Shown piece by piece: positions 49,819-64,000 of a DNA stretch of 64,000 bases (within the stretch, counting starts at the first letter, position 1; each line of letters begins with the position of its first letter). The notes under the pieces were generated by a model, which saw only the letters and a list, made by a program, of their open reading frames with translations, had not been told where the DNA came from and did no database searches. The stretch is taken from NCBI GenBank assembly GCA_035762345.1, contig DASTPE010000079.1, positions 408 through 64,407 of the forward strand, read 5' to 3'. The stretch comes from Burkholderiales bacterium. Lineage in GTDB: Bacteria; Pseudomonadota; Gammaproteobacteria; Burkholderiales; SG8-39. Made by a program: the position numbers and the translations under genes.

Positions 49819-50183
49819 GCGAGAAGAACGTGCTCGGCGGCGATCTGCTCGCCTGCAGCTACGATCCGCTCACCGGCTATTTCCGCGACGGCTGCTGCGC
49901 GACCCACGGGCAGGAAGGCGTCGCGCATCTCGTCTGCGTGCAGGTGACGCGCGAGTTCCTGGAATTCAGCGTCGCGCGCGGTAATGACCTCGTCACGCCG
50001 CGGCCCGAGCTACGCTTCCGGGGCCTGCAGCACGGCAACCGCTGGTGCCTGCACGTGCTGCGGTGGATCGAGGCATGGGAGGCGGGGCGCGCGCCGCGCG
50101 TGATCCTCGAGGCGACGCACGAGGACGTGTTGAACTACGTGCCGCTGTCCGCGCTCAAGCGCTATGCGCTCGACTTGAACTAA
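49815..50183 (+). CDS. DUF2237-family protein
   Basis: MSEKNVLGGDLLACSYDPLTGYFRDGCCAT...GNDLVTPRPE...NRWCLHVLRW. ATGA overlap with thrC. Confidence 0.75.
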   Translation: MSEKNVLGGDLLACSYDPLTGYFRDGCCATHGQEGVAHLVCVQVTREFLEFSVARGNDLVTPRPELRFRGLQHGNRWCLHVLRWIEAWEAGRAPRVILEATHEDVLNYVPLSALKRYALDLN

Positions 50184-50993: not shown

Positions 50994-51082
50994 CGGGCAC
51001 ATTCGATTTCGCAAGCCTGATGGGCACCGCATCGGCATCATCAGCGAAACGCCGTATCGGTTTGTGTTTGAGGGAGGACCGA

Positions 51083-52054
51083 ATGGTTATAAGAACCGCG
51101 GCCTGCATCGCCGCTGCCCTAGTCATCGCCAGCGTGCCGGCGCATGCGCAGGCACCGGCACCGCGGAAACCGGCTCCGGAAGCCGAGGTCTGCAAGAACT
51201 GCCACGCCGACTACGTCGAAAGCTACTTCAGGACGAAGCACGGCCAGGGCGGCAATGCCTTAGGTCCCGACTGCAAGACCTGCCACCTGAATTCAGAGGC
51301 GCACGCCGCCGCGGGCGGCGGCAAAGGTGCAGGCGGCATCCTCGGGTTCAATGACAGGGCCCAGCCTGCCGAGCGCAGGGCCGGCGTCTGCCTGAGCTGC
51401 CACCAAGGCAACCGCCACCTCGCGTTCTGGGACTCAGGCCAGCACCGCAAGCAGGACGTCGCGTGCAACGACTGCCATAGTCTGCACGGCACGCCCGGGC
51501 CGGGCTCAACTATCGCGCTGAAGGCGCCGAATCCCAAGGTCAGTCCCTACGTGACGACCGAGCGGCAGCTGCAGTACGAGACTTGCACGACTTGCCATCG
51601 GCAGATCCGCTCGCAGCTCCACAAGCCGTCGCATCACCCGATCATCGAAGGCAAGCTCAAATGCACCGACTGCCATAACCCGCACGGAGCGCTGTCCAAG
51701 GCCATGGTCAACGCCGAGTCGATCCCGCAGCTATGCACGACCTGCCATGCCGAGAAGCGCGGGCCGTACGTGTGGGGCCATCCGCCGGTCGAGGAGAACT
51801 GCCTGACCTGCCACAACCCGCACGGCTCGAACCATAACCGCCTCCTTGCGGAGAAGGCGCCGAACGTTTGCCAGGACTGCCATGACGCCTCGCGCCACCC
51901 CGGGACGATCTACGACGGAAGCGGCGGCTGGAACTTCTTCCCGCCGTCTACGGCACCGAACACCCGGCTCATCTCGCGCGGCTGCATCAACTGCCACTAC
52001 CACATCCACGGCAGCAATGCTCCCGCCATGCGGGGCAAGTTCTTCCTGCGATAG
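51083..52054 (+). CDS. periplasmic decahaem c-type cytochrome, MtrA/MtoA/PioA/DmsE family
   Basis: Signal peptide MVIRTAACIAAALVIASVPAHAQ. Ten CxxCH motifs (CKNCH CKTCH CLSCH CNDCH CTTCH CTDCH CTTCH CLTCH CQDCH CINCH). About 320 aa. GAGGGAGGA lies before the ATG. Confidence 0.9.
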   Translation: MVIRTAACIAAALVIASVPAHAQAPAPRKPAPEAEVCKNCHADYVESYFRTKHGQGGNALGPDCKTCHLNSEAHAAAGGGKGAGGILGFNDRAQPAERRAGVCLSCHQGNRHLAFWDSGQHRKQDVACNDCHSLHGTPGPGSTIALKAPNPKVSPYVTTERQLQYETCTTCHRQIRSQLHKPSHHPIIEGKLKCTDCHNPHGALSKAMVNAESIPQLCTTCHAEKRGPYVWGHPPVEENCLTCHNPHGSNHNRLLAEKAPNVCQDCHDASRHPGTIYDGSGGWNFFPPSTAPNTRLISRGCINCHYHIHGSNAPAMRGKFFLR

Positions 52055-52063
52055 GAGGCGGAC

Positions 52064-54184
52064 ATGAAACCTAGACTCCTCTCGGTCCTGGTCGCAAATC
52101 TCTTCGTCGCCGCCGCACCTGCGCTCGCCCAGGACGCGATGGAAGTGTCCGGGTCGGTGAGCGCAGGAATCCGCTATATCGATAACAACGCGGCCGATCC
52201 CTCGAAGTTCACCGAGTACCGCGACCTGGAAGACGGCACCTCGGGTATTTTCGGGTTCGAGTTTCGCGGCCGCAGCCAGAACAATTATTTCAATGCCTAC
52301 GGCGAGAATCTCGGGAACGACGACCAGTACCTTGACTTGAATGGCGGCCGCTACCAGACGTTCAAGTACCGCATCTACAGCGACCACCTGCGGCACAACC
52401 TCGGCTCGGGCCCGGGCGCGCTTTCCCCCTTCTCCGGAATCGGCGGTGCAACTATCACTGCGCCTTTCCCCCTGCCCGCGGTGGGAACGTGGAACAGCTT
52501 TGACCATGCCTACAAGCGCCGTGATACCGGCGGCATGTTCGAATGGCAGAAGGCTTCGCCGTGGTATTTCCGCGTCGACGCGAACGAGATCCGGCGAGAT
52601 GGCATCAACGTTTATGCCGGGGCGAACGGGACGAGCCCGGGCAACGGCTTCACCGACCTGCCGGTGCCGATCGACTGGCTGACGCGCAACTACGCGGCCG
52701 AGGTCGGCTACTCGACCAAGCGCGGACATATGGCGGTCAACCTCAGCTACAGCACGTTCGAGAACGAGAACCAAGTGCTGCGCTGGTCGAACCGCTTTTT
52801 CGCCAACGGCCTGGACACCACGGTGCTGCCGCCGGATAACGACCTCATCCGCGTCGCGGTCAACGGCAACCTGAGACAGCTGCCGATCGATTCGACCCTC
52901 GCGGGGCGGTTCACCTACAGCAAGCTGACCAATTCCGTCCCGATGCAGCTCAACATGCTTTCCACCGGCGGCGCGTTCCCGGCCACGAATCCGAGCCAGG
53001 GTAACTTCGAGGGCGACGTCGTCAAGTACACCCTCGGGCTGGCGTTCAACTCCCGACCGACCCAGGCGCTCGACACCAAGGTCTATTACAACTGGATCAA
53101 GGAAGAGAACGACTCGACGCACATGAACTTCGTGCCGGGGACCGGTCTCACCGGCGGGACGTGCACGACTGTCGATTGCTCGAACCATCTCTTCGGGTAC
53201 GAAAAGCACCAGATCGGAGCCGAAGCGGGCTACCGCCTGACGCGTGCGAACAAGTTCACCGGCGGGCTCGAATGGACCGATATCGATCGCGAGCGCGAGG
53301 ATTTCGACCACAACGAAGAGTGGCGCGCGTTCGTCGAGTGGAAGAACAGCTCGTTCGACTGGATGACGTCGCGGATCAAGTACCAGTACATGGAGCGCAC
53401 TGGGGATTTCAACCCGAACATCCCCGTGCTTACCCAGAATCCCATGGATCTCTTCGTGCGGCGTTTCGACGTCGCGAACGTAGAGCAGAACCTGGTCAAG
53501 CTCGCCCTCGACTTCGCCCCGGCGCCGCTGTTCGACATCGGCGTCGAGGCGATCTACAAGGAGAACAAGTACAAGGACACGATCCTCGGCCGCACCGAGG
53601 ATACGCGCCACGAGCTTTACGGCAGCGTAAGCTACGGCGATCCGAAGAGGTGGCGGGTGCATCTCTTCGGTGACATCGAATACGTCAAGTTCGACTCGTT
53701 CCACCGCGTCGGCACCGGAAATCCCGATCCGGGTTCAGGATCGAACGCCACCACTTTCAACTGGGCTTCGAAGAACGAAGACGACTCCTGGCAGGTCGGC
53801 ATCGGCGCCGACTGGGCGGCGCTGCCGCGCCTGATGATCAAGGCCTCGCTCATCTACGCCGAGACCGATGGGCACACGGACTTTACGGTCGCGCCCGGCG
53901 GCCCGACGACCCCGTTCGCGCCGATCGAAGCGAGCGACGACACGACGCGGGTCTCGTTCAATCTCAAGGGGATCTATCAGCTCGACCGGCAGTGGGAGCT
54001 TACGGCCGGCTATGCCTACGAGAAATATCGCTATAGCGACATCGCCTACGACAATACGCGGTACGTGGCTCCCTTGCCGCCCGCAGGCCTTACTAACACT
54101 GCCTCGAGCATCGTCACCGGGCAGTTCTCGTTCCAGAACTACGAAGCGCACATCGCCTACCTCGTCGCGAAGTATCGCTTCTAG
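52064..54184 (+). CDS. MtrB/MtoB/PioB-family outer-membrane porin for the decahaem cytochrome
   Basis: 706 aa. Signal peptide ...AAAPALAQD. Gly/Asn/Tyr-rich amphipathic strand pattern throughout, C-terminal ...YLVAKYRF, and position directly after the decahaem gene. Confidence 0.85.
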   Translation: MKPRLLSVLVANLFVAAAPALAQDAMEVSGSVSAGIRYIDNNAADPSKFTEYRDLEDGTSGIFGFEFRGRSQNNYFNAYGENLGNDDQYLDLNGGRYQTFKYRIYSDHLRHNLGSGPGALSPFSGIGGATITAPFPLPAVGTWNSFDHAYKRRDTGGMFEWQKASPWYFRVDANEIRRDGINVYAGANGTSPGNGFTDLPVPIDWLTRNYAAEVGYSTKRGHMAVNLSYSTFENENQVLRWSNRFFANGLDTTVLPPDNDLIRVAVNGNLRQLPIDSTLAGRFTYSKLTNSVPMQLNMLSTGGAFPATNPSQGNFEGDVVKYTLGLAFNSRPTQALDTKVYYNWIKEENDSTHMNFVPGTGLTGGTCTTVDCSNHLFGYEKHQIGAEAGYRLTRANKFTGGLEWTDIDREREDFDHNEEWRAFVEWKNSSFDWMTSRIKYQYMERTGDFNPNIPVLTQNPMDLFVRRFDVANVEQNLVKLALDFAPAPLFDIGVEAIYKENKYKDTILGRTEDTRHELYGSVSYGDPKRWRVHLFGDIEYVKFDSFHRVGTGNPDPGSGSNATTFNWASKNEDDSWQVGIGADWAALPRLMIKASLIYAETDGHTDFTVAPGGPTTPFAPIEASDDTTRVSFNLKGIYQLDRQWELTAGYAYEKYRYSDIAYDNTRYVAPLPPAGLTNTASSIVTGQFSFQNYEAHIAYLVAKYRF

Positions 54185-54272: not shown

Positions 54273-54554
54273 ATGAAAGCAAGCGTGCTTGTGATTGCCG
54301 CTGCGGCGGCGCTGGCGGCGGGTGCGGCGTATGCCCAGTCGGGCGCGGACGTGCTCAAGTCGAAGGGCTGTCTGAACTGCCACGAGGCCGACAAGAAGAA
54401 GGTCGGGCCTGCGTTCAAGGACATCGCGGCCAAGCAGAAGGGCAAGCAGGCCGAGCTGGTCGCGAAGCTAAAGGAAGGCAAGGGCCACCCGAAGATCGCC
54501 GCGTCGGACGCCGAGCTGAACGCTGCCGTGCAGGCGGTCCTCGCGACAAAATAG
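54273..54554 (+). CDS. MtoD-like class I monohaem cytochrome c (no Met in mature protein)
   Basis: Signal peptide MKASVLVIAAAAALAAGAAYAQS, a single CLNCH and a GKGHPK segment. The mature sequence contains no methionine. Confidence 0.85.
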   Translation: MKASVLVIAAAAALAAGAAYAQSGADVLKSKGCLNCHEADKKKVGPAFKDIAAKQKGKQAELVAKLKEGKGHPKIAASDAELNAAVQAVLATK

Positions 54555-54572: not shown

Positions 54573-55199
54573 TTGGATTCCCGGGTCGCACTCATAGCGC
54601 TCGCCGCGTCGGCGGCGCTCGTCATGCCTCAGCAGAGTGCGGCACAGGCGCGCAGCGGCAAGGAAGTCGTCGAGTCCACCTGCATTACCTGTCACGGCAG
54701 CGGCGCGCAGGGCGCGCCGAAGATCGGCGACCGCAAGGCCTGGAGCCAGCGCGCCAACCAGGGCTTGTCGAGCCTTACGCTGAGCGCGATCAAGGGGATC
54801 CGCAACATGCCGCCGCACGGCGGCAACACGGGTCTCACCGATCTCGAGCTCGCCCGCGGCGTCGCCTACATGGTGAACGCCTCGGGCGGCAAGTGGACCG
54901 AGCCTGCGAGCGCTACCGAGCTCAAGGCCGAGCGCGGCGGCGCGCAGGTGGTGAAGGCTCAGTGCTCCAAATGCCACCAGGACGGCAAGGGCGGGGCGCC
55001 GAAAATCGGCGATCGCGAAGCGTGGAGCAAGCGCCTCAACCAGGGAATCGACCGGGCGGTGAGCTCGGCGATCCACGGCCACGGCGGCATGCCGCCGCGC
55101 GGCGACAAGGCCGACCTGACCGACGGCGAAGTACGCGCCGCGATCCTCTACATGTTCAATCCGAAGACGCCGCCCAAGGCCGAGGCGAAGAAGAAGTAA
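54573..55199 (+). CDS. dihaem cytochrome c5-type protein
   Basis: Signal peptide. Two repeats of C(I/S)(T/K)CH...GAPKIGD(R)(K/E)AWSxR...MPP(H/R)G. Confidence 0.85.
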   Translation: MDSRVALIALAASAALVMPQQSAAQARSGKEVVESTCITCHGSGAQGAPKIGDRKAWSQRANQGLSSLTLSAIKGIRNMPPHGGNTGLTDLELARGVAYMVNASGGKWTEPASATELKAERGGAQVVKAQCSKCHQDGKGGAPKIGDREAWSKRLNQGIDRAVSSAIHGHGGMPPRGDKADLTDGEVRAAILYMFNPKTPPKAEAKKK

Positions 55200-55204
55200 G
55201 GCGG

Positions 55205-56341
55205 TTACTTGGCCGGCTGCGCGGCGTAGGTCGCGGACAGGCTTTCGATGATGCTGTCGCTGTAGGGCAGGCTCATCTTGTGCATCATCGAACTCTCGCG
55301 CCTGTCGTCCCGATAGGCTCTCAGTGCCATGATCAGGTAGTCCCGGTCCTGCCCTTTGATCTTGGGTACGACCATGCCCGGGATCTCGGCCTCTGCGCCA
55401 TGGCAGCGCTCGCAGCGCTCGGTGAGGTCTTTGACCAGGGTCTGGCCTTTCTCCGCAGCTTTCGATTTCTGCACCGAATAGAACGCGGCGATGTTCTGGA
55501 TGTCCTTTTCGCTCAGCCCGGTGACGTAGAGGCGCATGTTCTCCCGCTTGCGGGTCGTGCGGTAGGCCTTGATGGCGTCGACGAGGTAGCGCGCGTCCTG
55601 CCCCGCGAGGCTTGGCGTGCTGGTGTCGGTGCTTACGCCGTTCGCGCCGTGACATCCACCGCATACAGCGCTTAAAGGCTCGCCCGCCACCGGGTCGCCG
55701 AAAGCCGACACGCCGCGAGGCGTCGGCGCTTGGGAGGCGAAATAAAGCGCGAGGCTCTCCATGTCGAGCCTGGACATGCCCGGCAACAGGGCGTGCATTG
55801 GCGCCGCCTTGCGCTCCTTCTTCAGGTATTCCTGGATTGCGATGACGAGGTACTGCGGTTGCTGGCCGGCCAGGCTCGGCGTTCCGGAAATCTTGCTGTT
55901 GCCGTCGTCGCCATGGCACTTGGCGCAGGCGCTCGCCAGGGCCTTGCCCCGGTCATACGGGGAAACCTGCGTCGCGTCCTTTGCGGCGCCGGAGTCGACG
56001 GGCGGCAGGCTCGCGTAGTAAGCGGCGAGGTTGACTGCGTCCGGGTCGCTCATGTGCGCCGCGATTTCCCTCAGCGCCGCGTGCGTGCGCTTGCCTTCCT
56101 TGTAGGCCTTCAGCGCCGCCACGAGGTAGCGCTCGCGCTGAGCCGCCAGGTGCGGAATGGCCGGCGCGGTGCCTTTGCCGTCCAAGCCGTGGCATGCCTT
56201 GCATTCGCGCTCGGCGAAGGCCTTGCCCGCGGCAAGATCCACCGGGACCGGCTTCCCGACTCCCGCTTTCGTTGGCGCGGAATCCTGGTCGGTGCAGCCG
56301 AGCAGCGCGATCAATAGCAACCCCAGCTTGAGACTTTTCAT
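55205..56341 (-). CDS. tetrahaem c4-type cytochrome lipoprotein (four class I domains)
   Basis: Start at MKSLKLGLLLIALLGC (lipobox; GAGGAA 4 nt upstream). Motifs CKACH, CAKCH, CGGCH and CERCH, each followed by P(S/H)LAGQ...YL...Y..G.R. Confidence 0.85.
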   Translation of the reverse strand: MKSLKLGLLLIALLGCTDQDSAPTKAGVGKPVPVDLAAGKAFAERECKACHGLDGKGTAPAIPHLAAQRERYLVAALKAYKEGKRTHAALREIAAHMSDPDAVNLAAYYASLPPVDSGAAKDATQVSPYDRGKALASACAKCHGDDGNSKISGTPSLAGQQPQYLVIAIQEYLKKERKAAPMHALLPGMSRLDMESLALYFASQAPTPRGVSAFGDPVAGEPLSAVCGGCHGANGVSTDTSTPSLAGQDARYLVDAIKAYRTTRKRENMRLYVTGLSEKDIQNIAAFYSVQKSKAAEKGQTLVKDLTERCERCHGAEAEIPGMVVPKIKGQDRDYLIMALRAYRDDRRESSMMHKMSLPYSDSIIESLSATYAAQPAK

Positions 56342-56362
56342 GGATTCCTCGAGCACGATTGG

Positions 56363-57166
56363 TCAGCCGACGTCGGTAGCCTCGCCTTCCTGCCTCTGCA
56401 GGACCACCGATGGCGGATGGGAGAACCACATCTGGTACATCGACACCACCCACATGAAGGCGAATGACAGGCCCATCAGGGCGCCGCCGGCGATCACCAC
56501 CCAGGCGAACGGGTGGTACACCTTGGTGAAGTACCACGACCCGATGTCCATCGTGAGAGCGACGAACGGGAACGCGACGACGGTGCACTTGAACCAGACC
56601 GGCCGCACATAGGCGTGGCTGAAAATTGTTCCGAGGATGAAAAAGACAAAAGTCAGGCCGAAGAAGTGGATGTGCGAGACGCGCACGAGCGTGAAGAGGG
56701 CCGTACCGGTATCGCGCTCGATGACTTTCTGTACGTTGTCGTAGCCGTTCAGGTTCGGCAGGTGCGGATTGCTACCGTCGTGGCACGCCAGGCAGCGCCG
56801 GTCGAACGTCGTGCGGATCTCCTTTTCGTAGCGCGCGCGCTCGCCGCCTTCCTGCGCCCAGGAGACGAGCGTTGTGAGCTCCTCGCGTGGCAGCATTCCC
56901 GCCATCGATCCGCGCAGCGCCGCTTCGAGGCGCGAGCCCTTGCCGCTGCCGCTGTACGCGATCACCACGTCCTCGTAGGACAGCGTACGCGGATTGCCGT
57001 CCTTGCCGGAGTAGGTGTGGAACAAGTAAATCATGGCGAAGAGGTACGCAGTCCCGAGGATCAGCAAGGTCGCCGTATACAGCACGCGCAGGCTGTACGG
57101 CAGCTCCGAGAAATGCCGATAAAGGCGGTGCAGCGGCACGTCATTCACATTCGCGTCCTTTTTCAC
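56363..57166 (-). CDS. integral membrane protein with one CxxCH in a soluble loop (uncharacterised)
   Basis: GTG start overlapping the upstream stop (GTGA). One TM segment, then a roughly 110-aa loop containing RRCLACHDGSNPHLPNL, then three or four further TM segments. 267 aa. Confidence 0.7.
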   Translation of the reverse strand: MKKDANVNDVPLHRLYRHFSELPYSLRVLYTATLLILGTAYLFAMIYLFHTYSGKDGNPRTLSYEDVVIAYSGSGKGSRLEAALRGSMAGMLPREELTTLVSWAQEGGERARYEKEIRTTFDRRCLACHDGSNPHLPNLNGYDNVQKVIERDTGTALFTLVRVSHIHFFGLTFVFFILGTIFSHAYVRPVWFKCTVVAFPFVALTMDIGSWYFTKVYHPFAWVVIAGGALMGLSFAFMWVVSMYQMWFSHPPSVVLQRQEGEATDVG

Positions 57167-58359
57167 TTGCCGGCTTTCTTGCCCGCGGGTGCCGGCACGA
57201 TCACGTAAGTCACGGCACGGGCGGTCTGGCGCGCATAGTGGGCCGAGATATCCTTCACATCGCTCTCGCTCATTAATGCGGACATGGCGGCCATGGCCGT
57301 ACTCTTGCGCGCCCCCTTGCGGTAGTCGTGCAGCACCTGCTCGAGCCAGTCGGCGCGCTGCGCGGCGAGGCGCGGCATGAGCGGGTCGGTGCTGTTGCCG
57401 TTGGGACCGTGGCAGCGGTCGCAGCGCTCCGACCACTCAGCAAGCGTCAGCGGGCGGCGTACGTTGAGCGGCTGTGGCTGCTGGGCCGCGTAGTAGGCCG
57501 CGATGTCGTGCATCGCCTTCTCGTTGAGATCCGCCGCCGCTCCCTTCATCGATTCGTCCTTGCGCGAGCCGTCCTTGTACGCCTGGGTGGCAGCCGCCAG
57601 GTACTGCGCGTCCTGGCCGGCGAGGCTCGGTGTCGCCGGATTTCCGCTGACTCCCTGATCGCCGTGACAGGCGCCGCAGGCCGCCGCAGCCTTCTTGCCC
57701 GCTGCTGCGTCGCCGACGGCAGGGGTCTGCGCCCGAGCGGGTTTTTGTAGTGCATAGAAGAGCGCCAAGTTGCCCAGGTCGGCGTCGCTCACGCCCGCGG
57801 CCAGTGCCTTCATCATGTCGTTAGGGCGCTGGCCGCTCTTGTAGGCTGCCATCGCCGCAATAAGATACTTCGGATCGAGAGCGACCAGGCTCGGCATGCC
57901 GGGCATCGCGCTGACGCCGGCCTCTCCGTGGCAGGCTCCACAGGCCGCAGCCGCCGCCTTGCCCGCCTGCAACGGATCGGATTTGGCCGCAGCCGCTTTG
58001 CCGGGTGCCGCCGCGGGACGCGGCGGATCGAGGCTCGCGTAGTAGGCCGCCACTTTGACGAGCGCATCGTCGCTCAAGTACCGCACGATTCCGGTCATGG
58101 CGCCCTGCACGCGAGCGCCATGGCGATAGGCCCGTAGCTGGAGGTCGAGATACGCCGCGCGCTGCGCGGCGAGGTGCGGCACGCCCTTGGTTGCGCTTAC
58201 TCCGTTCGCGCCGTGACAGCGTGCGCAGGAGGCTTCCGCGATGCGCTTGCCCTCCGCGATCTCGACCGTCGTGGCATACACGGCCCGAAGCTCGTCCTCT
58301 GCAGGACTTGCGGCGAGTGCCGCAGTGCTGACCAGCAAGCCCGCCCACAGGATCTTCAT
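57163..58359 (-). CDS. tetrahaem c4-type cytochrome (four class I domains)
   Basis: C-terminal 398 aa of track ORF 57163..59466. Signal peptide MKILWAGLLVSTAALAAS. Motifs CARCH, CGACH, CGACH and CDRCH. ATGA overlap with the NrfD-like gene. Confidence 0.85.
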   Translation of the reverse strand: MKILWAGLLVSTAALAASPAEDELRAVYATTVEIAEGKRIAEASCARCHGANGVSATKGVPHLAAQRAAYLDLQLRAYRHGARVQGAMTGIVRYLSDDALVKVAAYYASLDPPRPAAAPGKAAAAKSDPLQAGKAAAAACGACHGEAGVSAMPGMPSLVALDPKYLIAAMAAYKSGQRPNDMMKALAAGVSDADLGNLALFYALQKPARAQTPAVGDAAAGKKAAAACGACHGDQGVSGNPATPSLAGQDAQYLAAATQAYKDGSRKDESMKGAAADLNEKAMHDIAAYYAAQQPQPLNVRRPLTLAEWSERCDRCHGPNGNSTDPLMPRLAAQRADWLEQVLHDYRKGARKSTAMAAMSALMSESDVKDISAHYARQTARAVTYVIVPAPAGKKAGK

Positions 58360-59531
58360 GATGCGGTCTTGTGCTCCCAAGGGGGAAGGAGCCGGGTGAT
58401 TCCCAGCAATACAACCAATGGCGCAACGACCAGCGCGAGGGCACTGATCAAGCCTTCCTTGCCGAAGATCTGCATCGGGTACTCGAGCAGCCCCTTGCCC
58501 GTCTTCGAGATCTCTTGGCCGCCGATGACGACGTTCCAGCGCATCATGAACACTGAGAGCAGCACCAGGCAGGCGCTCAGCGTGACGCCCAAGACCAGCG
58601 CTCTGCCCGCGGTGCCGCGCCAGATCATATAGGACAGCCACGCAAGCGGCACGATCGCACCGATACCGAATTGCAGCACGAAGTACGGGATCAGGAGCGG
58701 CCCGGTCACATAGGCCATGATCATCTCGATGCCTTCCCGGGCCTTGTAGACGATGTTGGCGAATTCCAGCCCCTCGAGAACGAAGGCAACGATGATGAAT
58801 GCCCACACGGTATAGGCGAGGCCCTTCACGCACGCGAGATCGATCGGGACCCTGCGCAACTTGCACGACAGCACATAGAGCACGATGAGCAGCGCCACGC
58901 CGGAGATGATGGCCGAGAACAGGAACACGAGCGGCATCAGGTCCGAAGACCACCACTCGCGCGACTTGAGGGAGCCGAACACGAAACCGACGTAGCCGTG
59001 CAGGCCGTGCGCGCCGGGGATGCCGGCGATCGCCAGCCAGAAGATCCATTTCCGGTCGACGCGCAAGGCGCCCTCCGAAACGTCGTACGAGCCGAGCGTG
59101 AGCACGCGGTAGAACGCGCCCAAAGGTCCTTTTCTCTTCTGCGCCTGCGCCACGATATAGGGGCGAAACGCGAACCACGTCTCCACGATCAGCAGCACGA
59201 TGTAAAAAGTCGCGAAGTAGCCGAAGGCCGCCATGGCCGAGGTCCAATGCGGCGTGAGCAGGTTGTTGAAGGCGCGCTCGGGATGGCCAAGATGCAAAAG
59301 CAGCGGCAGCGGCACGAATAACATGAAGCACAGCGAGGTCAGGAGCGCGAGGTGGGCAACGGGCTTCAGGCGCTCGAAACCGAACACCTGGTAGAGGCTC
59401 GACACCGTAAACGCCCCGGCGACCAGGCCGGTGATGTACGGGTAGACGACGATGGCCACCGACCATTCGATCACGGTCTCGTTCGGGTACACCCAGCCGG
59501 CGTAGGGAGCATAGTGGATGAGAGGTTCCAC
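58356..59531 (-). CDS. NrfD/PsrC/ActC-family quinone-interacting membrane subunit
   Basis: 391 aa with about 10 TM segments. N-terminus MEPLIHYAPYAGWVYPNETVIEWSVAIVVYPYITGLVAG is typical of polysulfide-reductase NrfD-type proteins. Confidence 0.88.
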   Translation of the reverse strand: MEPLIHYAPYAGWVYPNETVIEWSVAIVVYPYITGLVAGAFTVSSLYQVFGFERLKPVAHLALLTSLCFMLFVPLPLLLHLGHPERAFNNLLTPHWTSAMAAFGYFATFYIVLLIVETWFAFRPYIVAQAQKRKGPLGAFYRVLTLGSYDVSEGALRVDRKWIFWLAIAGIPGAHGLHGYVGFVFGSLKSREWWSSDLMPLVFLFSAIISGVALLIVLYVLSCKLRRVPIDLACVKGLAYTVWAFIIVAFVLEGLEFANIVYKAREGIEMIMAYVTGPLLIPYFVLQFGIGAIVPLAWLSYMIWRGTAGRALVLGVTLSACLVLLSVFMMRWNVVIGGQEISKTGKGLLEYPMQIFGKEGLISALALVVAPLVVLLGITRLLPPWEHKTAS

Positions 59532-60361
59532 TAGCTCACCTCCTTGTCGATGCCGACATAGAACACGTTCGGCCCATTGCCGGTCTCCGGCTTGAGCACG
59601 TGTACGCGGTTGTTGCGGACGAACAGGCTAATCGCGCTTTGCTTGTCGTTGAGATCACCGAAGACGCGTGCGCCGACCGGACAAGCGTCGACGCAGGCGG
59701 GCTGCAGGCCGCTGGTGATGCGGTGATAGCACCACGTGCACTTGTCGGATACGCCCTTTTCTTCGTCGAAGAAGCGCGCGCCGTAGGGACAGGCCTGCAC
59801 GCAGTACCGGCAGCCGATGCAGTATTCATGGTCGATGAGCACCACCCCGTCTTTGGCCTTGTAGGTCGCGCCGACCGGGCACACCTGCACACAGGGCGGG
59901 TGCTCGCACTGGTTGCACAGCTTGGGGACGAAGAAGGCCTTCTCGACTTTCGCGTTCTGGTAGCGGTTGGCGAACCGGTACTCGCGCTGCGAGCCGGAGG
60001 CGGCGATGTTGACCGGGTCGGCGTGGCTGTCGATGCGCGGCCTCGCTTCTCCCTCCAGGTAGACGTAGCGCTCCACCCAGGTGCGGAAATGATGCGCGGT
60101 GAGCGGCACCTTGTTCTCGACCTTGCACGCCTCGACGCAACGCAGGCAGCCGATGCATTTCGTGGCGTCGACGCCGAAAGCCCAGCGGTGCTTCGTCCAG
60201 TCGTAGTCCGCCGTCGGAAAGGATTTCGGGGGCGTAACCGATTCGGTTTTCGCGCCGACTTTGGCGAGCGATGCCGCCGTGCCCGCAGCTACGGCAGCAG
60301 CGCCGAGCTTGCGCAGAAAGTGGCGCCTGGCAAGCAATCCGCTGATTGCCTCGCGCTTCAC
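59531..60361 (-). CDS. Tat-exported 4x[4Fe-4S] ferredoxin subunit (NrfC/PsrB/ActB2-like)
   Basis: GTG start overlapping the upstream stop. Twin-arginine leader LLARRHFLRKLGAAAVAAG. Four Cys clusters (CIGCLRCVEAC, CNQCEHPPCVQVCP, CIGCRYCVQACP, CTWC...CVDACP). No molybdopterin-like domain. Confidence 0.88.
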   Translation of the reverse strand: MKREAISGLLARRHFLRKLGAAAVAAGTAASLAKVGAKTESVTPPKSFPTADYDWTKHRWAFGVDATKCIGCLRCVEACKVENKVPLTAHHFRTWVERYVYLEGEARPRIDSHADPVNIAASGSQREYRFANRYQNAKVEKAFFVPKLCNQCEHPPCVQVCPVGATYKAKDGVVLIDHEYCIGCRYCVQACPYGARFFDEEKGVSDKCTWCYHRITSGLQPACVDACPVGARVFGDLNDKQSAISLFVRNNRVHVLKPETGNGPNVFYVGIDKEVS

Positions 60362-61386
60362 GGCTTCTTCCCGCAGCCCTGCGCGGCGTAGTACGCGGCG
60401 AGGTTCGCGATGTCGGCGTCGCTCAGGCCCCTGACGACGCCGGCCATCATCGGATCCTTGCGCAGGCCGGCCCTGAACGCCTTGAGGGTGTTCGCGAGGT
60501 ACACCGCCTTCTGGGCGGCGATGTTCGGCCACCCGGGATTTGCTCCGACGCCCGTCTCGCCGTGACAAGCGGAGCAGTTCTTCGCCAGAGCCTTGCCCGC
60601 CGCGGCGTCGCCCGTCGCGCTTGCGCTCGCCGCGGGCTTGCAGCTCAAGGCAGCGTAGTAGGCGGCGAGATCCTGGATCTCCGCATCGCTCAAGGTCTTC
60701 GCCACCGGCGACATCATGACGTCGGACTGGGCGCCGGACCTGTAGGCACCGAGGATGGCGACCAGGTAGGCGGCGTTCTGGCCTGCCAGGTTGGGCCAGC
60801 TGTCGTTCGGGCTGATTCCATCGGCGCCGTGGCAGCCGGCACAGCTCTCCGCGTGCTTCCTAGCGCCCGAGGCGGCGTCGCCGCCCGCCGGCGCCACGAC
60901 GCCGGCGAGCTTCGGCGCATGCGGGTTGTGGCAGACGGCGCATTGCTGGCCCGCGCCGTGCTGGGCGAGATCGATCTGCGGCTGCGTGCGCGGCCTCTCG
61001 GCCATGCGCTCATGGCACAGAGCGCAGAGCCGCCGGGTGTCGGAAGGAACCGGCAGCTTTCCCTCCTGCGGATGCTTCTGCGCCGCGCCATGACAGACTT
61101 CGCACGCCACCGTTTTGTGGTTCGCGGCAGACCACTGGGCGTGGCGCTCGCTGTGGCAGCCCTGGCAATAGGCCGAGGTCCGGAACACCGGCTCGTGGGC
61201 CGCGATCTCGGCCACTGAGCCGGCGCGGTAGTGGCCGAACTCATAGAAGGACTCGGCAGTGAAATACCACTTCGCGACCAGGGCGGCGGCAAACCCCGCA
61301 CCCAGCAGCACGAGCAGTCGGAAGACGTGCCTAGGCAGCGCCGGCCCCCAGCCATAAAGTGAACTCCCGTCCCCCGACCGTAGCAA
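60358..61386 (-). CDS. membrane-anchored hexahaem cytochrome c (4-haem NrfB/ActA-like module + two c4-type domains)
   Basis: TTG start and an N-terminal TM segment (FRLLVLLGAGFAAALVA). Motifs CQGCH, CEVCH, CALCH and CAVCH (paired-CxxCH type), then CAGCH and CSACH in class I domains. Confidence 0.85.
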   Translation of the reverse strand: MLRSGDGSSLYGWGPALPRHVFRLLVLLGAGFAAALVAKWYFTAESFYEFGHYRAGSVAEIAAHEPVFRTSAYCQGCHSERHAQWSAANHKTVACEVCHGAAQKHPQEGKLPVPSDTRRLCALCHERMAERPRTQPQIDLAQHGAGQQCAVCHNPHAPKLAGVVAPAGGDAASGARKHAESCAGCHGADGISPNDSWPNLAGQNAAYLVAILGAYRSGAQSDVMMSPVAKTLSDAEIQDLAAYYAALSCKPAASASATGDAAAGKALAKNCSACHGETGVGANPGWPNIAAQKAVYLANTLKAFRAGLRKDPMMAGVVRGLSDADIANLAAYYAAQGCGKKP

Positions 61387-61429: not shown

Positions 61430-63589
61430 TCAGCCGGCGCGCACGAGGAAGCCCCGCAGTACGAGCAGGAGCAGAATCAGCCCGATCGTTATCAGGACAA
61501 AGCCGAGGAAGGCCGAGCCGATCGTCATCGGCCGCGATGGCGCGTTCACCAGGTGCTTCTCGAGCTCGCCGGACTTCTTCAGCCGTTCGTACTCGAGCGC
61601 GTGCTCACGCCTGAACTCGTCGAGCGACACCGAGCCCGTGAACATTACGATGTCGAGCGGGAACTTGTCCGGCCGGAAGTGGTTGTTGAAGAAGTGCACC
61701 GTGAACAGGAAGACCGCGGCGAGCACCGCCTCTTCTCCGTGCACGATGGTGGCGACGTTGAATATCCATCCCGGCAGGATCGACGCCGTGGCCTCGGGGA
61801 CTGCGAGCATGAAGCCGCTGCCGCCGATGATCGCCATGCCCCAGAACACCGCCCAGTAGTCGAACTTCTCCCAGTAGGTCCAGCGGTCGAATTGCGGGCG
61901 CGGCCGCATGCCGACGAACCACTGGAACATGGCGATGATGTCCTGCAGGTCCTGCCAGTTCGGCACCAGCGAGTTTGGCCCGAACCAATCGAACGTGCGC
62001 AAGCGCGGCAGGATGCGCGCGCCCACCACATAGACCAGGTGGATGAAGAAGATCCCAAGCATGAGGGTGGCGGCGACGCGGTGCACGACCGCGGCCTCTT
62101 TCGGGCTGCCGAACATGCGCACCACAAGCTGCGCCCAGGGCATCTCGGCGAAGAACACCGCCATCCCGGTGAGGACAAGCGTCATCACGCTAATCGCGAA
62201 GATGAGGTGCGCAAGCCGCCACATCGGCGCGAAGCGCTGGAACTGCTTGCCCTGCGGGTGCAGATGCAGGCCGACGACATGCGGGCTCGTCTTTCCTTCC
62301 TTGCGATCGCGCCATTCGCGGTAGAACCAGAGCGCGGTGTGCGTCCAGAAGAAAACGAACACGCCGATGAGCAGCGCGACCATGAACTTGGTTGCGACCC
62401 ACACCTGCGGATAACGCTCGAAGTCATACGGCGTGGCGTGCGGCTGAAAGCTCACGAAGCCCGGGGTCGCGTTCTTGTGGCACTGCTGGCAGGTCGCGAG
62501 GCGATTGTTGGGATGAACGCGTGAGGCGGGATCGGCTACGCGCTGCACGTTATGCCCGCTGTGGCAGTCGGAGCACTTGGCGGTATACGCGTAGCCCAGC
62601 CGGTGCACCTGGCCGTGATAGGTGTGGATGTAGGTGCGGTAGCTCTCGACGTGGCAGTTGCCGCAGTTCTGCGTGATCGCCACTTTCGTGGACGCTGCCG
62701 CCGGCGACTGGATGTCGTGCGTGGTGTGGCAGTCGGAGCAGATCGCCGCCACCGGGTTTCCTTTTTGCAGCACTTCGACGCCATGCACGGAGTTCTTGTA
62801 GACGCCGACCTGCTTCTCGTGGCACTTGCCGCAGACCAGCGGAATGCTCAGGCGCCAGTCGGCGCGCCCGGTGCTGCCGATCGGGTAAATGTAATGCGCA
62901 TCGTGGCAGTTGTAGCAGGTCGCGTTGGTGCGCGACTGGTCGTCGCGCCGCGGCCGCGCGTGCACCGACTTGAGATAGCGGTCGATCTGCTCGACCACCA
63001 CGCCGAGGCGCTCGTAGTCCTTCCTGCGGTCCTCTTCCAGGGTCCTCCACGTGTCCTGGTGGCACTGGATGCAGCCCACGCGGATCGGGCCGGTGCGCTT
63101 GTGCGGGATCTCGGTGATGTCGGTGTGGCACTCGACGCATCGGCGCTTCGCATGCACGCTGAGCTCGAACTTCTCCTTCACCACGTGGAGCGGGCGCGGC
63201 CTGCCATCGGGTCCGGGCATGGTAAAGCCCTCGTTGCCGTGGCAGCCGAAGCAGGTCGCGTTGTCGAGCGGCATCGCCGGTGCCGCGGCGGCTTCGGGTT
63301 TCGGCTTTCCAGCGGGCTTCTGCTGCAAGTACGCGACGATGGCCTGCAGCTCTCCTGCGCTGGCGTCGACCGGCATCGGATGGCCCTTGCCGGCGCGCAG
63401 CGCGCCGATCAGCTTGGATTCGGCGCCCCGGTACTTCGCCGCGGCCTCCCGCAGCGCCGGGCCCATCTTCTTCTCGTCCAACGCGTGGCAGCCGAGGCAA
63501 CCTTTCGACTGCAGAAGCGCCTCGCCGGATTGCGCACGCGCAAGCGGCGTGAATGCAATCAACGCCGCCGCCAGGACCCAGACCCGCAT
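61430..63589 (-). CDS. decahaem c-type cytochrome fused to a C-terminal 6-TM cytochrome b-like domain (CbcL-like)
   Basis: Trimmed to MRVWVLAAALIAFTPLARAQ (GGAGG upstream). One class I domain (CLGCH) plus nine further CxxCH motifs, then six hydrophobic helices with conserved His (RLAHL, VVHRV, FIHL, IVHGEE, TVHFFNNH). 719 aa. Confidence 0.85.
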   Translation of the reverse strand: MRVWVLAAALIAFTPLARAQSGEALLQSKGCLGCHALDEKKMGPALREAAAKYRGAESKLIGALRAGKGHPMPVDASAGELQAIVAYLQQKPAGKPKPEAAAAPAMPLDNATCFGCHGNEGFTMPGPDGRPRPLHVVKEKFELSVHAKRRCVECHTDITEIPHKRTGPIRVGCIQCHQDTWRTLEEDRRKDYERLGVVVEQIDRYLKSVHARPRRDDQSRTNATCYNCHDAHYIYPIGSTGRADWRLSIPLVCGKCHEKQVGVYKNSVHGVEVLQKGNPVAAICSDCHTTHDIQSPAAASTKVAITQNCGNCHVESYRTYIHTYHGQVHRLGYAYTAKCSDCHSGHNVQRVADPASRVHPNNRLATCQQCHKNATPGFVSFQPHATPYDFERYPQVWVATKFMVALLIGVFVFFWTHTALWFYREWRDRKEGKTSPHVVGLHLHPQGKQFQRFAPMWRLAHLIFAISVMTLVLTGMAVFFAEMPWAQLVVRMFGSPKEAAVVHRVAATLMLGIFFIHLVYVVGARILPRLRTFDWFGPNSLVPNWQDLQDIIAMFQWFVGMRPRPQFDRWTYWEKFDYWAVFWGMAIIGGSGFMLAVPEATASILPGWIFNVATIVHGEEAVLAAVFLFTVHFFNNHFRPDKFPLDIVMFTGSVSLDEFRREHALEYERLKKSGELEKHLVNAPSRPMTIGSAFLGFVLITIGLILLLLVLRGFLVRAG

Positions 63590-63718: not shown

Positions 63719-64000
63719 ATGGCAGCGCTCAATCCAATCGCCGTGTGGCACGAGGAGCACGTCTACTTTAACCAGCTGCTGCACCTCCTGCAGCGCGAGG
63801 TCGACGTGTTTCACACCGGAAACCGGCCGAACTACGAGCTGATGTTCGACATCGTCTCGTACCTGCGCGAATACTCCGACCGGTTCCATCACCCGCGCGA
63901 GGACGAGGCGTTCGCGCGCTTGGCGAAGCGCTGCCCGCACATGGAGCTGCCGCTTGCGCGTCTCGCGCAGGAGCACCGCGTGATCGCGCAGTCGGGCGAG
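63719..64000 (+). CDS. hemerythrin (HHE cation-binding) domain protein, 3' end outside window
   Basis: Hand-translated open frame running to the window edge: MAALNPIAVWHEEHVYFNQLLHLLQREVDVFHTGNRPNYELMFDIVSYLREYSDRFHHPREDEAFARL...QEHRVI. H/E ligand spacing is typical of hemerythrin-like proteins. Absent from the track because it is unterminated. Confidence 0.7.
   Translation, partial: MAALNPIAVWHEEHVYFNQLLHLLQREVDVFHTGNRPNYELMFDIVSYLREYSDRFHHPREDEAFARLAKRCPHMELPLARLAQEHRVIAQSGE

What the first reader, a model, noticed from the sequence alone, without database searches (positions are those of the whole stretch)
61430..63589. CbcL-like decahaem/cytochrome b fusion carrying a tethered copy of the soluble shuttle cytochrome
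What the sequence shows:
- The 719-aa protein begins with a signal peptide.
- Next comes a class I monohaem domain (SGEALLQSKGCLGCHALDEKKMGPALREAAAKYRG...GKGHPMP...ELQAIVAYL).
- Nine further CxxCH motifs follow, then six hydrophobic helices with His pairs positioned to hold b-haems.
- The N-terminal domain aligns by eye at roughly half its positions with the free monohaem cytochrome at 54273-54554 (SGADVLKSKGCLNCHEADKKKVGPAFKDIAAKQKG...GKGHPK...ELNAAVQAVL).

What is established: Geobacter CbcL combines a nine-haem c domain with a HydC/FdnI-type dihaem b domain and acts as an inner-membrane quinol oxidoreductase for extracellular respiration.

Inference:
- This is the same design principle, in a betaproteobacterial-type genome next to an Mto-type conduit.
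- The additional fused shuttle-like domain could serve as a built-in docking or entry site.
- I am not aware of this three-part fusion being described.
Basis: partly seen in the sequence, partly recalled or inferred. Interest (0 to 1): 0.78.

Follow-up and report, generated by a model that had tools for sequence, protein, structure and literature searches.

The report
MtoC quinone cytochrome with tethered shuttle
This gene encodes an inner-membrane cytochrome of an already named family (CbcL/MtrH/MtoC) that links the quinone pool to an outer-membrane iron electron conduit. What sets it apart is an extra small cytochrome domain on a flexible tether, a copy of the free periplasmic shuttle encoded nearby; this variant is common in uncultured soil and groundwater bacteria, and I found no description of it.

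Summary
On the minus strand (63589 to 61430) lies a 719-aa protein made of:
- a signal peptide;
- a c551/c552-type monohaem domain;
- an Ala/Pro/Lys-rich linker;
- nine further CxxCH motifs;
- six transmembrane helices, whose four-helix core matches E. coli FdnI, with four invariant His in the FdnI haem-ligand positions.

The N-domain is 49-52% identical to the free cytochrome at 54273-54554. That is well above its similarity to any other class I domain in the window.

The [quoted passage not shown] is not new. It is the named CbcL/MtrH/MtoC family, and the haem spacing matches Gallionella MtoC exactly, shifted by about 67 residues.

The tethered domain does look new:
- none of 138 family members in the 2018 survey has it;
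- 103 of the 120 closest public homologues do (87 with one copy, 13 with two, 3 other variants), so it is not an assembly artefact;
- fused domains form one clade, sister to the short free cytochromes of the same loci.

Most likely it is a mobile electron port between the periplasmic carriers and the nonahaem wire. This is inferred, not shown.

Verdict: new variant of a known kind, moderate interest.

The parts
61430..63589 (-). Whole gene: MtoC/CbcL-family inner-membrane cytochrome with an extra N-terminal class I domain (719 aa; 10 c-type haem motifs plus 2 predicted b haems)
63533..63589 (-). Signal peptide, residues 1-19 (MRVWVLAAALIAFTPLARA / QS)
   Evidence: read from the translation; homologues start the same way
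63311..63532 (-). Tethered c551/c552-type monohaem domain, residues 20-93. CLGCH at 31-35. His70 (in GKGHP) is conserved in 104/105 homologues; Met72 in only 41/105.
63266..63310 (-). Ala/Pro/Lys-rich linker, residues about 94-108. pLDDT is below 50. In 87 homologues its length ranges 14-54 residues (median 22), with 45% Ala, 16% Pro and 10% Lys.
62420..63265 (-). Periplasmic nonahaem c domain, residues about 109-390. The nine CxxCH motifs have the same spacing as Gallionella MtoC Galf_2006.
61433..62419 (-). Membrane domain, residues about 391-719: anchor helix TM0, a four-helix FdnI-type dihaem b core (candidate ligands His461, His503, His617, His632) and a C-terminal helix TM5
54273..54554 (+). 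Free short MtoD-like monohaem cytochrome (93 aa), paralogue of the tethered domain; lies just downstream of mtoB
51020..52054 (+). MtoA/PioA-like periplasmic decahaem cytochrome
52064..54184 (+). MtrB/PioB-type outer-membrane porin (MtoB)
   Evidence: PF11854, E 3e-77
54573..55199 (+). Dihaem c4-type cytochrome that follows the free MtoD-like gene; conserved in that position in L031, L037, L083
55205..61386 (-). Six genes co-directional with and immediately downstream of the fusion gene: a 4-haem plus 2 class I cytochrome with a TM anchor, a Tat-exported NrfC-like 4Fe-4S protein, an NrfD-like membrane protein, a 4-domain class I cytochrome, an Aq_1264_TM membrane protein with one CxxCH, and another 4-domain class I cytochrome

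Best explanation
The gene encodes an inner-membrane quinone/quinol:cytochrome c oxidoreductase of the CbcL/MtrH/MtoC family.

How the core works:
- A periplasmic chain of nine c haems is anchored by one helix.
- It feeds an FdnI-type four-helix bundle that holds two b haems across the membrane.
- By analogy with FdnI, the quinone site lies near the cytoplasmic-side haem.

What is added here:
- At the N-terminus there is a c551/c552-fold monohaem domain on a disordered Ala/Pro/Lys linker of about 15-20 residues.
- This domain arose by duplication of the short MtoD-like periplasmic cytochrome encoded in the same island, followed by fusion to MtoC.
- I propose it works as a mobile electron port. 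It swings between periplasmic partners (the free paralogue, MtoA in the MtoB porin, or the co-encoded c4-type cytochromes) and the first haem of the nonahaem wire. That replaces part of a diffusion step with a tethered one.

Shown versus inferred:
- Shown here: domain composition, conservation, paralogy, fold assignment and genomic linkage.
- Inferred: haem b binding, the quinone site, the port function, and the direction of electron flow (Fe(II) or electron uptake versus quinol oxidation and electron export).
For: Family membership:
- The haem spacing is identical to the MtoC entries of Table S2 in PMC6295460.
- It is 81% identical to P0036, which by source name, length and haem positions is OFW44602.1 of that table.
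- It is 50-54% identical to MtoC genes of Gallionella, Rhodoferax and Ramlibacter lithotrophicus genomes that carry mtoA, mtoB and mtoD nearby.

The b domain:
- The top Foldseek hit is 1kqf_C (FdnI): probability 1.00, target TM-score 0.72, 242 aligned columns.
- TIGR01583 aligns residues 450-671 to positions 2-202 of its 204, and PF01292 gives E 4.8e-5. Both are below their curated cut-offs.
- Four His are invariant in an FdnI-like pattern.

The tether:
- The linker has pLDDT below 50.
- Its length varies from 14 to 54 residues and it is low in complexity.

Paralogy:
- 49-52% identity to the free cytochrome.
- In a neighbour-joining tree all fused domains form one clade, sister to the short free cytochromes of the same loci.

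Genomic linkage:
- A free short cytochrome gene accompanies the fusion in the window, L001/L003, L002, L031, L037, L083, L084, L085 and L086.
- mtoA and mtoB are present in the window, L031, L037, L083 and L085, and mtoB in L084.

Modularity:
- Variants exist with 0, 1 or 2 tethered domains and with 5, 7 or 9 wire haems.
- This fits a modular reach-adjusting add-on.
Against: - No functional data exist for any member that carries the N-domain.
- The AlphaFold2 model is only moderate (mean pLDDT 71.9, no haems), so the geometry between the N-domain and haem 1 is unknown.
- Sequence evidence for the b domain is below the curated cut-offs. Profile search of PDB sequences did not retrieve FdnI.
- The free paralogue is retained wherever the fusion occurs, so the tether does not simply replace the shuttle.
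- L001 and L002 have no mtoAB within 10 kb, so the port may serve other partners.
- An FdnI-type cytoplasmic-side quinone site would make quinone reduction by a donor near +150 mV energetically unfavourable. That argues against the textbook role of MtoC as a quinone reductase in Fe(II) oxidation (my inference from FdnI knowledge and the MtoD potential given in PMC4412085).
Confidence: 0.6

Rival explanations
1. The tethered domain is not an interface to the Mto conduit. Instead it is the dedicated link to the co-encoded inner-membrane or periplasmic machinery: the class I multi-domain cytochromes g5 and g7, the Aq_1264_TM protein and the NrfCD-type module. Together these would form one inner-membrane supercomplex.
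For: - The g5-g6-g7 trio and/or the g2-g4 NrfCD module lie next to MtoC genes in many loci, with or without mtoAB.
- In P0086 the fusion protein is further fused at its C-terminus to a g5 homologue (67% identity). This is a Rosetta-stone hint of physical association.
- L001 and L002 carry the fusion plus these modules but have no mtoAB within 10 kb.
Against: - The N-domain's closest relatives are the free cytochromes that sit beside mtoB. They are not the c4-type domains of g2, g5 or g7 (26 bits or less).
- Nine-haem MtoC genes without the N-domain also sit next to g5-g7 (for example L005, L020, L022), so that association does not need the domain.
- The P0086 fusion is seen on a single contig.
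Confidence: 0.22
2. The extra domain is a functionally neutral or merely additive haem (extra electron storage). It would be a by-product of fusing two neighbouring genes, with no special docking or mobility role.
For: - The domain has been lost repeatedly. Genuine 9-haem forms with signal peptides sit among fused forms in the core tree.
- P0112 shows an in-frame deletion that removes it.
- Haem number in this family is known to be very plastic, from 3 to 23 (PMC6295460).
Against: - The domain is kept at 40-95% identity across more than 100 homologues.
- The CxxCH motif is invariant and His70 is conserved in 104/105.
- It has been duplicated in tandem at least three times.
- A conserved low-complexity linker is always kept. 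This is the pattern expected under selection.
Confidence: 0.12
3. The ORF is an artefact: an assembly or frameshift fusion of a monohaem cytochrome gene with an mtoC gene. Alternatively, the membrane part is a plain anchor without b haems.
For: - mtoD-like genes do lie directly beside mtoC in many genomes, for example L047, L066, L071, L073 and L080. An accidental join is therefore conceivable in principle.
Against: - 103 of the 120 best homologues, from four independent data sources, have the same continuous architecture.
- The fused domains are a clade distinct from all free cytochromes.
- The signal peptide is at the very N-terminus only, and the linker is in frame.
- The membrane part has four invariant His in FdnI positions and an FdnI-like predicted fold.
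Confidence: 0.02

Closest known systems
MtoC / MtrH (Gallionella capsiferriformans ES-2 Galf_2006, Dechloromonas aromatica Daro_1404, Rhodoferax ferrireducens Rfer_4073), the betaproteobacterial branch of the CbcL family
   Same: - Nine CxxCH motifs with identical spacing.
- Six TM helices and conserved His in the membrane part.
- Encoded with mtoA, mtoB and an mtoD-type gene.
- 50-54% identity to the genus-level relatives found here.
   Different: - The window protein has about 90 extra N-terminal residues that form a class I monohaem domain plus linker.
- None of the 138 family members listed in PMC6295460 has this arrangement.
- The partner free cytochrome is the short subtype, not canonical MtoD.
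CbcL (Geobacter sulfurreducens GSU0274)
   Same: - Same overall design: periplasmic nonahaem c domain plus six-TM HydC/FdnI-type dihaem b domain.
- Placed in one family with MtoC and MtrH, at about 35% identity, by PMC6295460.
   Different: - Different spacing of the first haems: 34, 57, 82, 105, 129... in CbcL against 113, 151, 173, 225... here.
- No class I domain.
- Works with Pcc-type conduits in a quinol-oxidising direction.
- Direct alignment with GSU0274 was not run here.
MtoD (Sideroxydans lithotrophicus ES-1, PDB 4XXL)
   Same: - Class I c551/c552-like fold: Foldseek target TM-score 0.60, rmsd 2.5 angstroms, 28% identity; profile E 1.3e-9.
- A conserved His sits where MtoD has its distal His, and there is no conserved Met.
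- Encoded next to mtoB.
   Different: - 35 rather than 48 residues between the two His, because the MtoD beta-loop insertion is missing.
- Here the domain is covalently tethered, not soluble.
- The window copy also has Met72, which aligns with the c551 axial Met, so His/Met ligation cannot be excluded.
E. coli formate dehydrogenase-N gamma subunit FdnI (PDB 1KQF chain C)
   Same: - Best structural match of the membrane core.
- One His in TM1, one in TM2 and two in TM4, spaced 14-15 residues apart.
   Different: - Only 15% identity.
- Two additional helices, TM0 and TM5.
- The electron partner is a fused multihaem c domain rather than an Fe-S subunit.
Respiratory complexes with tethered or fused class I cytochrome domains (membrane-anchored cytochrome cy, caa3 oxidase subunit II, CcoP of cbb3 oxidase)
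   Same: The same design principle: a class I cytochrome held near its redox partner by a flexible tether. This is my own knowledge; the CcoP-cy fusion entry 6xkx appeared among the weak PDB hits.
   Different: - Different host enzyme: a quinone-linked multihaem wire.
- The tethered domain coexists with a free paralogue in the same gene island.

Membership tests
CbcL/MtrH/MtoC family | N-terminal periplasmic multihaem c domain (nine CxxCH in CbcL, MtoC and MtrH) | tested here: met
   Nine CxxCH at residues 113-367, invariant in 115-117 of 117 homologues.
CbcL/MtrH/MtoC family | Six transmembrane helices in the C-terminal half | tested here: met
   The AlphaFold2 model has six long helices between residues 394 and 718. 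K/R-rich loops fit a periplasm-out N-terminus. No dedicated TM predictor was available.
CbcL/MtrH/MtoC family | HydC/FdnI-type dihaem cytochrome b core with conserved His ligands | tested here: met
   Foldseek hit 1kqf_C with probability 1.00 and target TM-score 0.72. TIGR01583 and PF01292 give sub-threshold hits.
CbcL/MtrH/MtoC family | Sequence homology to named members | tested here: met
   81% identity to P0036, which by source name, length and haem positions is OFW44602.1 of Table S2 in PMC6295460. Haem spacing equals Galf_2006, Daro_1404 and Rfer_4073. 50-54% identity to Gallionella, Rhodoferax and Ramlibacter loci. Direct alignment with GSU0274 was not run.
CbcL/MtrH/MtoC family | Quinol oxidase or quinone reductase activity | not testable with these tools
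   Needs biochemistry. It is also still only proposed for the named members (PMC6295460).
MtoC subgroup | Encoded in a cluster with mtoA, mtoB and a monohaem mtoD-type gene | tested here: met
   MtoA 51020-52054, MtoB 52064-54184 (PF11854, E 3e-77) and the monohaem cytochrome 54273-54554 lie convergent with the operon headed by the fusion gene. The same holds in L031, L037, L083, L084 and L085.
MtoD family (for the N-terminal domain and the free cytochrome) | Class I c551/c552-like fold with one CxxCH | tested here: met
MtoD family (for the N-terminal domain and the free cytochrome) | Bis-His axial ligation (His47/His95 in 4XXL) | tested here: inconclusive
   His70 is conserved in 104/105 and no Met is conserved, which favours His/His. 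However, the window copy has Met72 aligned to the c551 Met61. Ligation needs spectroscopy.
MtoD family (for the N-terminal domain and the free cytochrome) | MtoD-specific beta-loop (48 residues between the two His) | tested here: not met
   The spacing is 35 residues. Canonical long MtoD genes (48 residues) occur next to 9-haem MtoC in L047, L066 and others, and fall outside the clade holding the fused domains and the short free cytochromes of their loci.
MtoD family (for the N-terminal domain) | Soluble periplasmic protein | tested here: not met
   The domain is part of a 719-aa membrane protein. The free paralogue at 54273-54554 does meet this feature.
Alternative complex III (considered for the downstream genes) | ActB with a molybdopterin-like domain, two NrfD-like subunits (ActC and ActF), and a pentahaem ActA | tested here: not met
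   The Fe-S protein is only about 276 aa and has 4Fe-4S domains only. There is a single NrfD gene. It is better described as an NrfCD-type module with cytochromes.

The most novel reading that the evidence does not exclude
The tethered MtoD-like domain, or two of them in the 11-haem forms, turns MtoC into a self-contained arm that reaches across the periplasm. It would exchange electrons directly with MtoA and, homotypically, with its free paralogue. Lineages would tune this reach by changing the number of tethered domains (0, 1 or 2), the linker length (14-54 residues) and the wire length (5, 7 or 9 haems). Together with the co-inherited c4-type cytochromes, the Aq_1264_TM protein and the NrfCD module, this would define a previously unrecognised, widespread electron-exchange island in uncultured soil and groundwater Burkholderiales.
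Probability: 0.3. Interest if true: 0.55.

Novelty: new variant of a known kind. Interest (0 to 1): 0.38.

Why it matters
How electrons cross the periplasm between outer-membrane porin-cytochrome conduits and the quinone pool is the least understood step of extracellular electron transfer in iron-oxidising and iron-reducing Betaproteobacteria. Neither MtoC nor its interaction with MtoD has been characterised biochemically.

- A natural MtoD-like/MtoC fusion is genetic evidence that this type of monohaem cytochrome and MtoC work together.
- It offers a convenient construct, with 1:1 stoichiometry and fixed proximity, for measuring that electron-transfer step and for structural work.
- Variants with 0, 1 or 2 tethered domains are a ready-made comparative series.
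- The conserved 13-kb island is common in soil and groundwater metagenomes, so it may mark a widespread but uncultured guild that exchanges electrons with minerals or humics.

The core enzyme type itself is already known, which limits the surprise.

Tried and rejected
1. The plasmid collection gave no tblastn match.
2. Sequence searches of the PDB, with the single protein and with a 62-sequence profile, found only the class I domain and weak multihaem hits, never FdnI. The b-domain assignment therefore rests on structure prediction plus Foldseek, sub-threshold HMM hits and the His pattern.
3. The look-up of encoding contigs found no record for the window's own protein P0001, so context beyond position 64000 could not be read. 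L083 (83% identical orthologue) served as a proxy.
4. The "query residues matched" column of the search for related loci suggested fusions in Ramlibacter lithotrophicus, Gallionella, Sulfuritalea and Sulfuricella. ORF-level checking showed these are 9-haem MtoC genes with a separate long MtoD gene beside them, not fusions.
5. Alternative complex III was considered for the downstream genes and rejected: no molybdopterin-like ActB and only one NrfD.
6. Several apparent 9-haem close relatives (P0036, P0044, P0100, P0103, P0113, P0081, P0029, P0097) begin inside the linker or the N-domain and lack a signal peptide. I treated them as truncated gene calls, not as evidence of loss.
7. The core-domain neighbour-joining tree was read only as leaf order, without support values. 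It is not a rigorous test of how many gains and losses occurred.
8. The search of 1.84 billion representatives with the N-domain mostly returned fragments and free cytochromes of about 95 aa at 45-57% identity. It added little beyond confirming that free relatives are numerous.
Full report
**1. What is at the coordinates**

The feature is a gene on the minus strand. Its ATG is at 63589, preceded by GGGGAGG, and its stop is at 61430-61432, giving 719 aa. The translation starts with a typical signal peptide (MRVWVLAAALIAFTPLARA/QS).

There are ten CxxCH motifs, at residues 31, 113, 151, 173, 225, 253, 284, 309, 339 and 367. Residues 18-90 match the class I cytochrome models PF00034 and PF13442. 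In the PDB they match the c551/c552/c555 group and MtoD (4XXL).

Residues about 94-108 (QQKPAGKPKPEAAAAPAMP) form an Ala/Pro/Lys-rich stretch. After the ninth motif of the multihaem part come six hydrophobic helices.

**2. Is the N-domain really a copy of the free cytochrome?**

Yes. BLASTP of the N-terminal 111 residues against the product of 54273-54551 gives 49% identity over 83 residues, E 3e-22. With the domain alone the figures are 51.5% over 66 residues and 69 bits.

As controls, the same domain scores:
- 49 bits against P. aeruginosa c551, the archetype of this subfamily;
- 26 bits or less against each of the roughly twelve other class I domains encoded in the window (g2, g5, g7 and the c4 dihaem protein).

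Both the fused domain and the free protein lack the c551 "GVWGPIPMPP" Met loop and instead carry a "GKGHP" motif. In 105 homologues His70 is conserved 104 times, while Met72 is Met in only 41. The conserved sixth ligand is therefore most likely His, as in MtoD, which is bis-His via His47 and His95 (PMC4412085). One caveat: the window copy reads HPMP, and its Met72 aligns with the axial Met61 of c551. His/Met ligation in this particular protein cannot be excluded.

**3. What family is the rest?**

The literature search led to Zhong and Shi 2018 (PMC6295460). They define a CbcL/MtrH/MtoC family:
- CbcL of Geobacter has nine CxxCH and six TM helices with a HydC/FdnI-like dihaem b domain.
- MtoC occurs in Gallionella ES-2 and Dechloromonas RCB, and MtrH in Rhodoferax ferrireducens.
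- MtoC and MtrH are about 35% identical to CbcL and sit in mtoAB/mtrAB clusters together with mtoD.

Their Table S2 lists haem positions. Galf_2006 has 46, 83, 106, 159, 190, 221, 246, 276 and 304. The window protein has 113, 151, 173, 225, 253, 284, 309, 339 and 367. The successive spacings match to within a residue or two (37/23/53/31/31/25/30/28 against 38/22/52/28/31/25/30/28), with an offset of about 67 residues.

One of my close hits, P0036 (81% identity), matches OFW44602.1 of that table by source name, length and haem positions. So the nonahaem-plus-b part is an MtoC. The [quoted passage not shown] is already known and named (see also PMC5566968, and PMC8805035).

**4. The membrane domain**

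Sequence models give only sub-threshold hits:
- PF01292 Ni_hydr_CYTB, E 4.8e-5, 23.6 bits against a cut-off of 30.1;
- TIGR01583 formate dehydrogenase gamma, E 1.5e-4, but covering residues 450-671 against model positions 2-202 of 204.

A 62-sequence profile did not retrieve FdnI from PDB sequences.

I therefore predicted the structure from alignment A1 (mean pLDDT 71.9) and searched the PDB with Foldseek. The best hit overall is 1kqf_C, the FdnI subunit of E. coli formate dehydrogenase-N (E 8e-4, probability 1.00, target TM-score 0.72, 242 columns). The hydrogenase-1 cytochrome b (4gd3_A) scores lower.

In 117 homologues, His417, 461, 503, 617, 632, 637 and 663 are invariant. A family HMM aligned to FdnI puts His461, His503 and His617 on FdnI His18, His57 and His155. 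His632 lies 15 residues after His617, compared with 14 residues between His155 and His169 in FdnI.

With the c domain in the periplasm, the K/R-rich loops put TM0 running out to in, and the FdnI-like core in the FdnI orientation. His503 and His617 then sit near the periplasmic side, and His461 and His632 near the cytoplasmic side. The refutation test "b-haem His ligands not conserved" fails to refute.

**5. Is the three-part fusion real, and how common is it?**

Of the 120 best hits among 5.8 billion clustered proteins:

| Architecture | Number |
|---|---|
| One N-domain plus nine haems | 87 |
| Two tandem N-domains plus nine haems (about 800-837 aa) | 13 |
| One N-domain plus seven haems | 2 |
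| One N-domain, nine haems and a C-terminal four-haem extension | 1 |
| No N-domain | 17 |

Of the 17 without the domain, about eight are obviously truncated gene calls that start inside the linker or the domain. One (P0112) is an in-frame deletion that joins the CLGCH of the N-domain to the first wire haem.

The sequences come from JGI, ENA, NCBI and Logan assemblies, labelled Burkholderiales, Betaproteobacteria or Gammaproteobacteria MAGs. An assembly artefact is excluded.

None of the 138 family members in Table S2 of the 2018 survey has this arrangement. Four further literature searches found no description of it. JGI's automatic product names ([quoted passage not shown]) already reflect the domain combination.

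Among the 80 best GTDB species representatives, only L003 has the full 1+9 form, and L031 and L037 have the 1+7 form. The others are 9-haem MtoC genes. The apparent full-length matches in Ramlibacter lithotrophicus RBP-1, Gallionella, Sulfuritalea and Sulfuricella turned out to be 9-haem MtoC genes with a separate mtoD gene alongside.

**6. Origin of the domain**

Two kinds of free monohaem cytochrome lie next to MtoC genes:
- The canonical long MtoD type has 48 residues between the two His and carries the "PKVKLxDGSEEDHK" loop. It occurs with 9-haem MtoC in Gallionella, Sideroxydans, Rhodoferax, Ramlibacter and others.
- A short type has 35 residues between the two His ("GKGHP"). It occurs in the window and in L001, L002, L031 and L037.

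In a neighbour-joining tree of 134 domains, all fused domains form one clade. Its sister is the clade of short free cytochromes from the very loci that carry fusions. The long MtoDs lie further out (no support values, short alignment).

The window N-domain is 71% identical to the L001 N-domain but only 49% to the L001 free protein. The window free protein is 70% identical to the L001 free protein. Duplication and fusion therefore predate these lineages, and both copies have been kept since. Tandem second copies arose at least three times (P0030, P0061 and the P0064 group). The core tree suggests several secondary losses, but this was not tested rigorously.

**7. Surroundings**

The gene heads a co-directional run of seven genes. 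After it come:
- g2, with four CxxCH plus two class I domains and a TM anchor;
- a Tat-dependent NrfC-like 4Fe-4S protein;
- an NrfD-like membrane protein;
- g5, a four-domain class I cytochrome;
- g6, an Aq_1264_TM protein with one CxxCH;
- g7, a second four-domain class I cytochrome.

Convergent with this run, on the plus strand, are MtoA (51020-52054), MtoB (52064-54184, PF11854 E 3e-77), the free cytochrome, and a dihaem c4.

The island is flanked by a Crp-family regulator (50218-50724) and a hemerythrin gene (from 63734), exactly as in L083. L083 has the same genes but no NrfCD module. Related loci shuffle the same modules:
- L001 and L002: fusion, free cytochrome, g2-g7, with the ccm operon adjacent and no mtoAB within 10 kb.
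- L084: mtoB, free cytochrome, g2-g7, an EB_dh gene, then the fusion.
- L085: mtoAB and the free cytochrome, Crp, the fusion, g5-g7, g2-g4, with frdABCD and ubiE nearby.
- L086: the fusion protein is joined at its C-terminus to a g5 homologue (67% identity), with TM5 taking the place of the g5 signal peptide. This is seen on one contig only.

**8. Mechanism**

- Shown: domain composition, conservation, paralogy, fold similarity and gene linkage.
- Follows from established knowledge of FdnI and of CbcL/MtoC proposals: two b haems span the membrane and connect a quinone site to the periplasmic haem wire.
- Inferred: the N-domain, on a disordered linker (pLDDT below 50; 14-54 residues, about 70% Ala, Pro and Lys), acts as a mobile port that shuttles electrons between periplasmic carriers and the first wire haem.

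The existence of forms with 0, 1 or 2 domains and with 5, 7 or 9 wire haems fits a reach-tuning module.

Direction cannot be read from sequence. If the quinone site is on the cytoplasmic side, as in FdnI, inward electron flow from a carrier near +155 mV (the MtoD value, PMC4412085) to quinone would work against the membrane potential. Outward quinol oxidation would be assisted by it. The Crp and hemerythrin regulators, and fumarate reductase nearby in relatives, hint at anaerobic use. All of this is inference.

The main rival is that the port serves the co-encoded c4-type cytochromes and the NrfCD module rather than MtoA.

**9. Verdict**

The enzyme type and its association with Mto clusters are already known (MtoC/MtrH/CbcL). 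The tethered short MtoD-like domain is a real, conserved and widespread variant that appears undescribed.

It is a useful natural construct for studying the MtoD-MtoC step. But fusing a class I cytochrome to its redox partner is a familiar theme (cytochrome cy, caa3, CcoP), so specialist surprise would be moderate. I rate it a new variant of a known kind, interest about 0.38.

Noticed in passing
window 55205-61386 (-): Six genes follow the fusion gene. They comprise an NrfC/NrfD-type module with a 4+2-haem anchored cytochrome (g2-g4), and a trio of a four-domain class I cytochrome, an Aq_1264_TM protein with one CxxCH, and another four-domain class I cytochrome (g5-g7). Both modules recur beside MtoC genes in many loci, in shuffled order. 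I know of no name for this assembly. It is not alternative complex III.
   Followed up: partly
L086 10001-13291 (protein P0086, 1096 aa): The MtoC fusion is additionally joined at its C-terminus to a homologue of window g5 (67% identity). The last TM helix takes the place of the g5 signal peptide. This hints that MtoC and g5 interact physically, but it is seen on a single contig and could be a lost stop codon or a sequencing error.
   Followed up: partly
proteins P0112, P0136, P0107/P0115; loci L031 10010-11860 and L037 6062-7909: Architecture variants exist. P0112 has an in-frame deletion that joins the CxxCH of the N-domain to the first wire haem. Other forms have the N-domain plus only seven wire haems (L031, L037, P0107, P0115) or five (P0136). 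Thirteen 11-haem forms carry two tandem N-domains.
   Followed up: partly
window 49815-50724 and 63734-64000; L083: The roughly 13-kb cytochrome island is bracketed by DUF2237 and a Crp-family regulator on one side and a divergent hemerythrin gene on the other. The bracketing is the same in the window and in L083. This suggests regulation responsive to oxygen or redox state.
   Followed up: partly
L085 270-4141; L086 17499-21438: frdABCD (fumarate reductase with FrdC and FrdD anchors) and a ubiE-type methyltransferase lie next to the island in two relatives. The ccm cytochrome-maturation operon, an EB_dh (PF09459) protein and a Flavodoxin_5 (HemG-like) gene flank it in L001, L002 and L084.
   Followed up: no
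window gene residues 417, 637, 663 (about 62339-62341, 61679-61681, 61601-61603): Three further His are invariant in 117 homologues: His417 in the anchor helix TM0, and His637 and His663 on the cytoplasmic side. The four-His FdnI pattern does not explain them. They could line the quinone site or bind something else.
   Followed up: no
L047 12001-12228, L066 12140-12262, L071, L073, L080 and others: Canonical long MtoD genes (48 residues between the two His) lie immediately next to 9-haem mtoC genes in Gallionella, Ramlibacter lithotrophicus RBP-1, Rhodoferax and Paucibacter genomes. The tethered form uses the short subtype (35 residues). Two MtoD subtypes therefore track two MtoC architectures.
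   Followed up: partly
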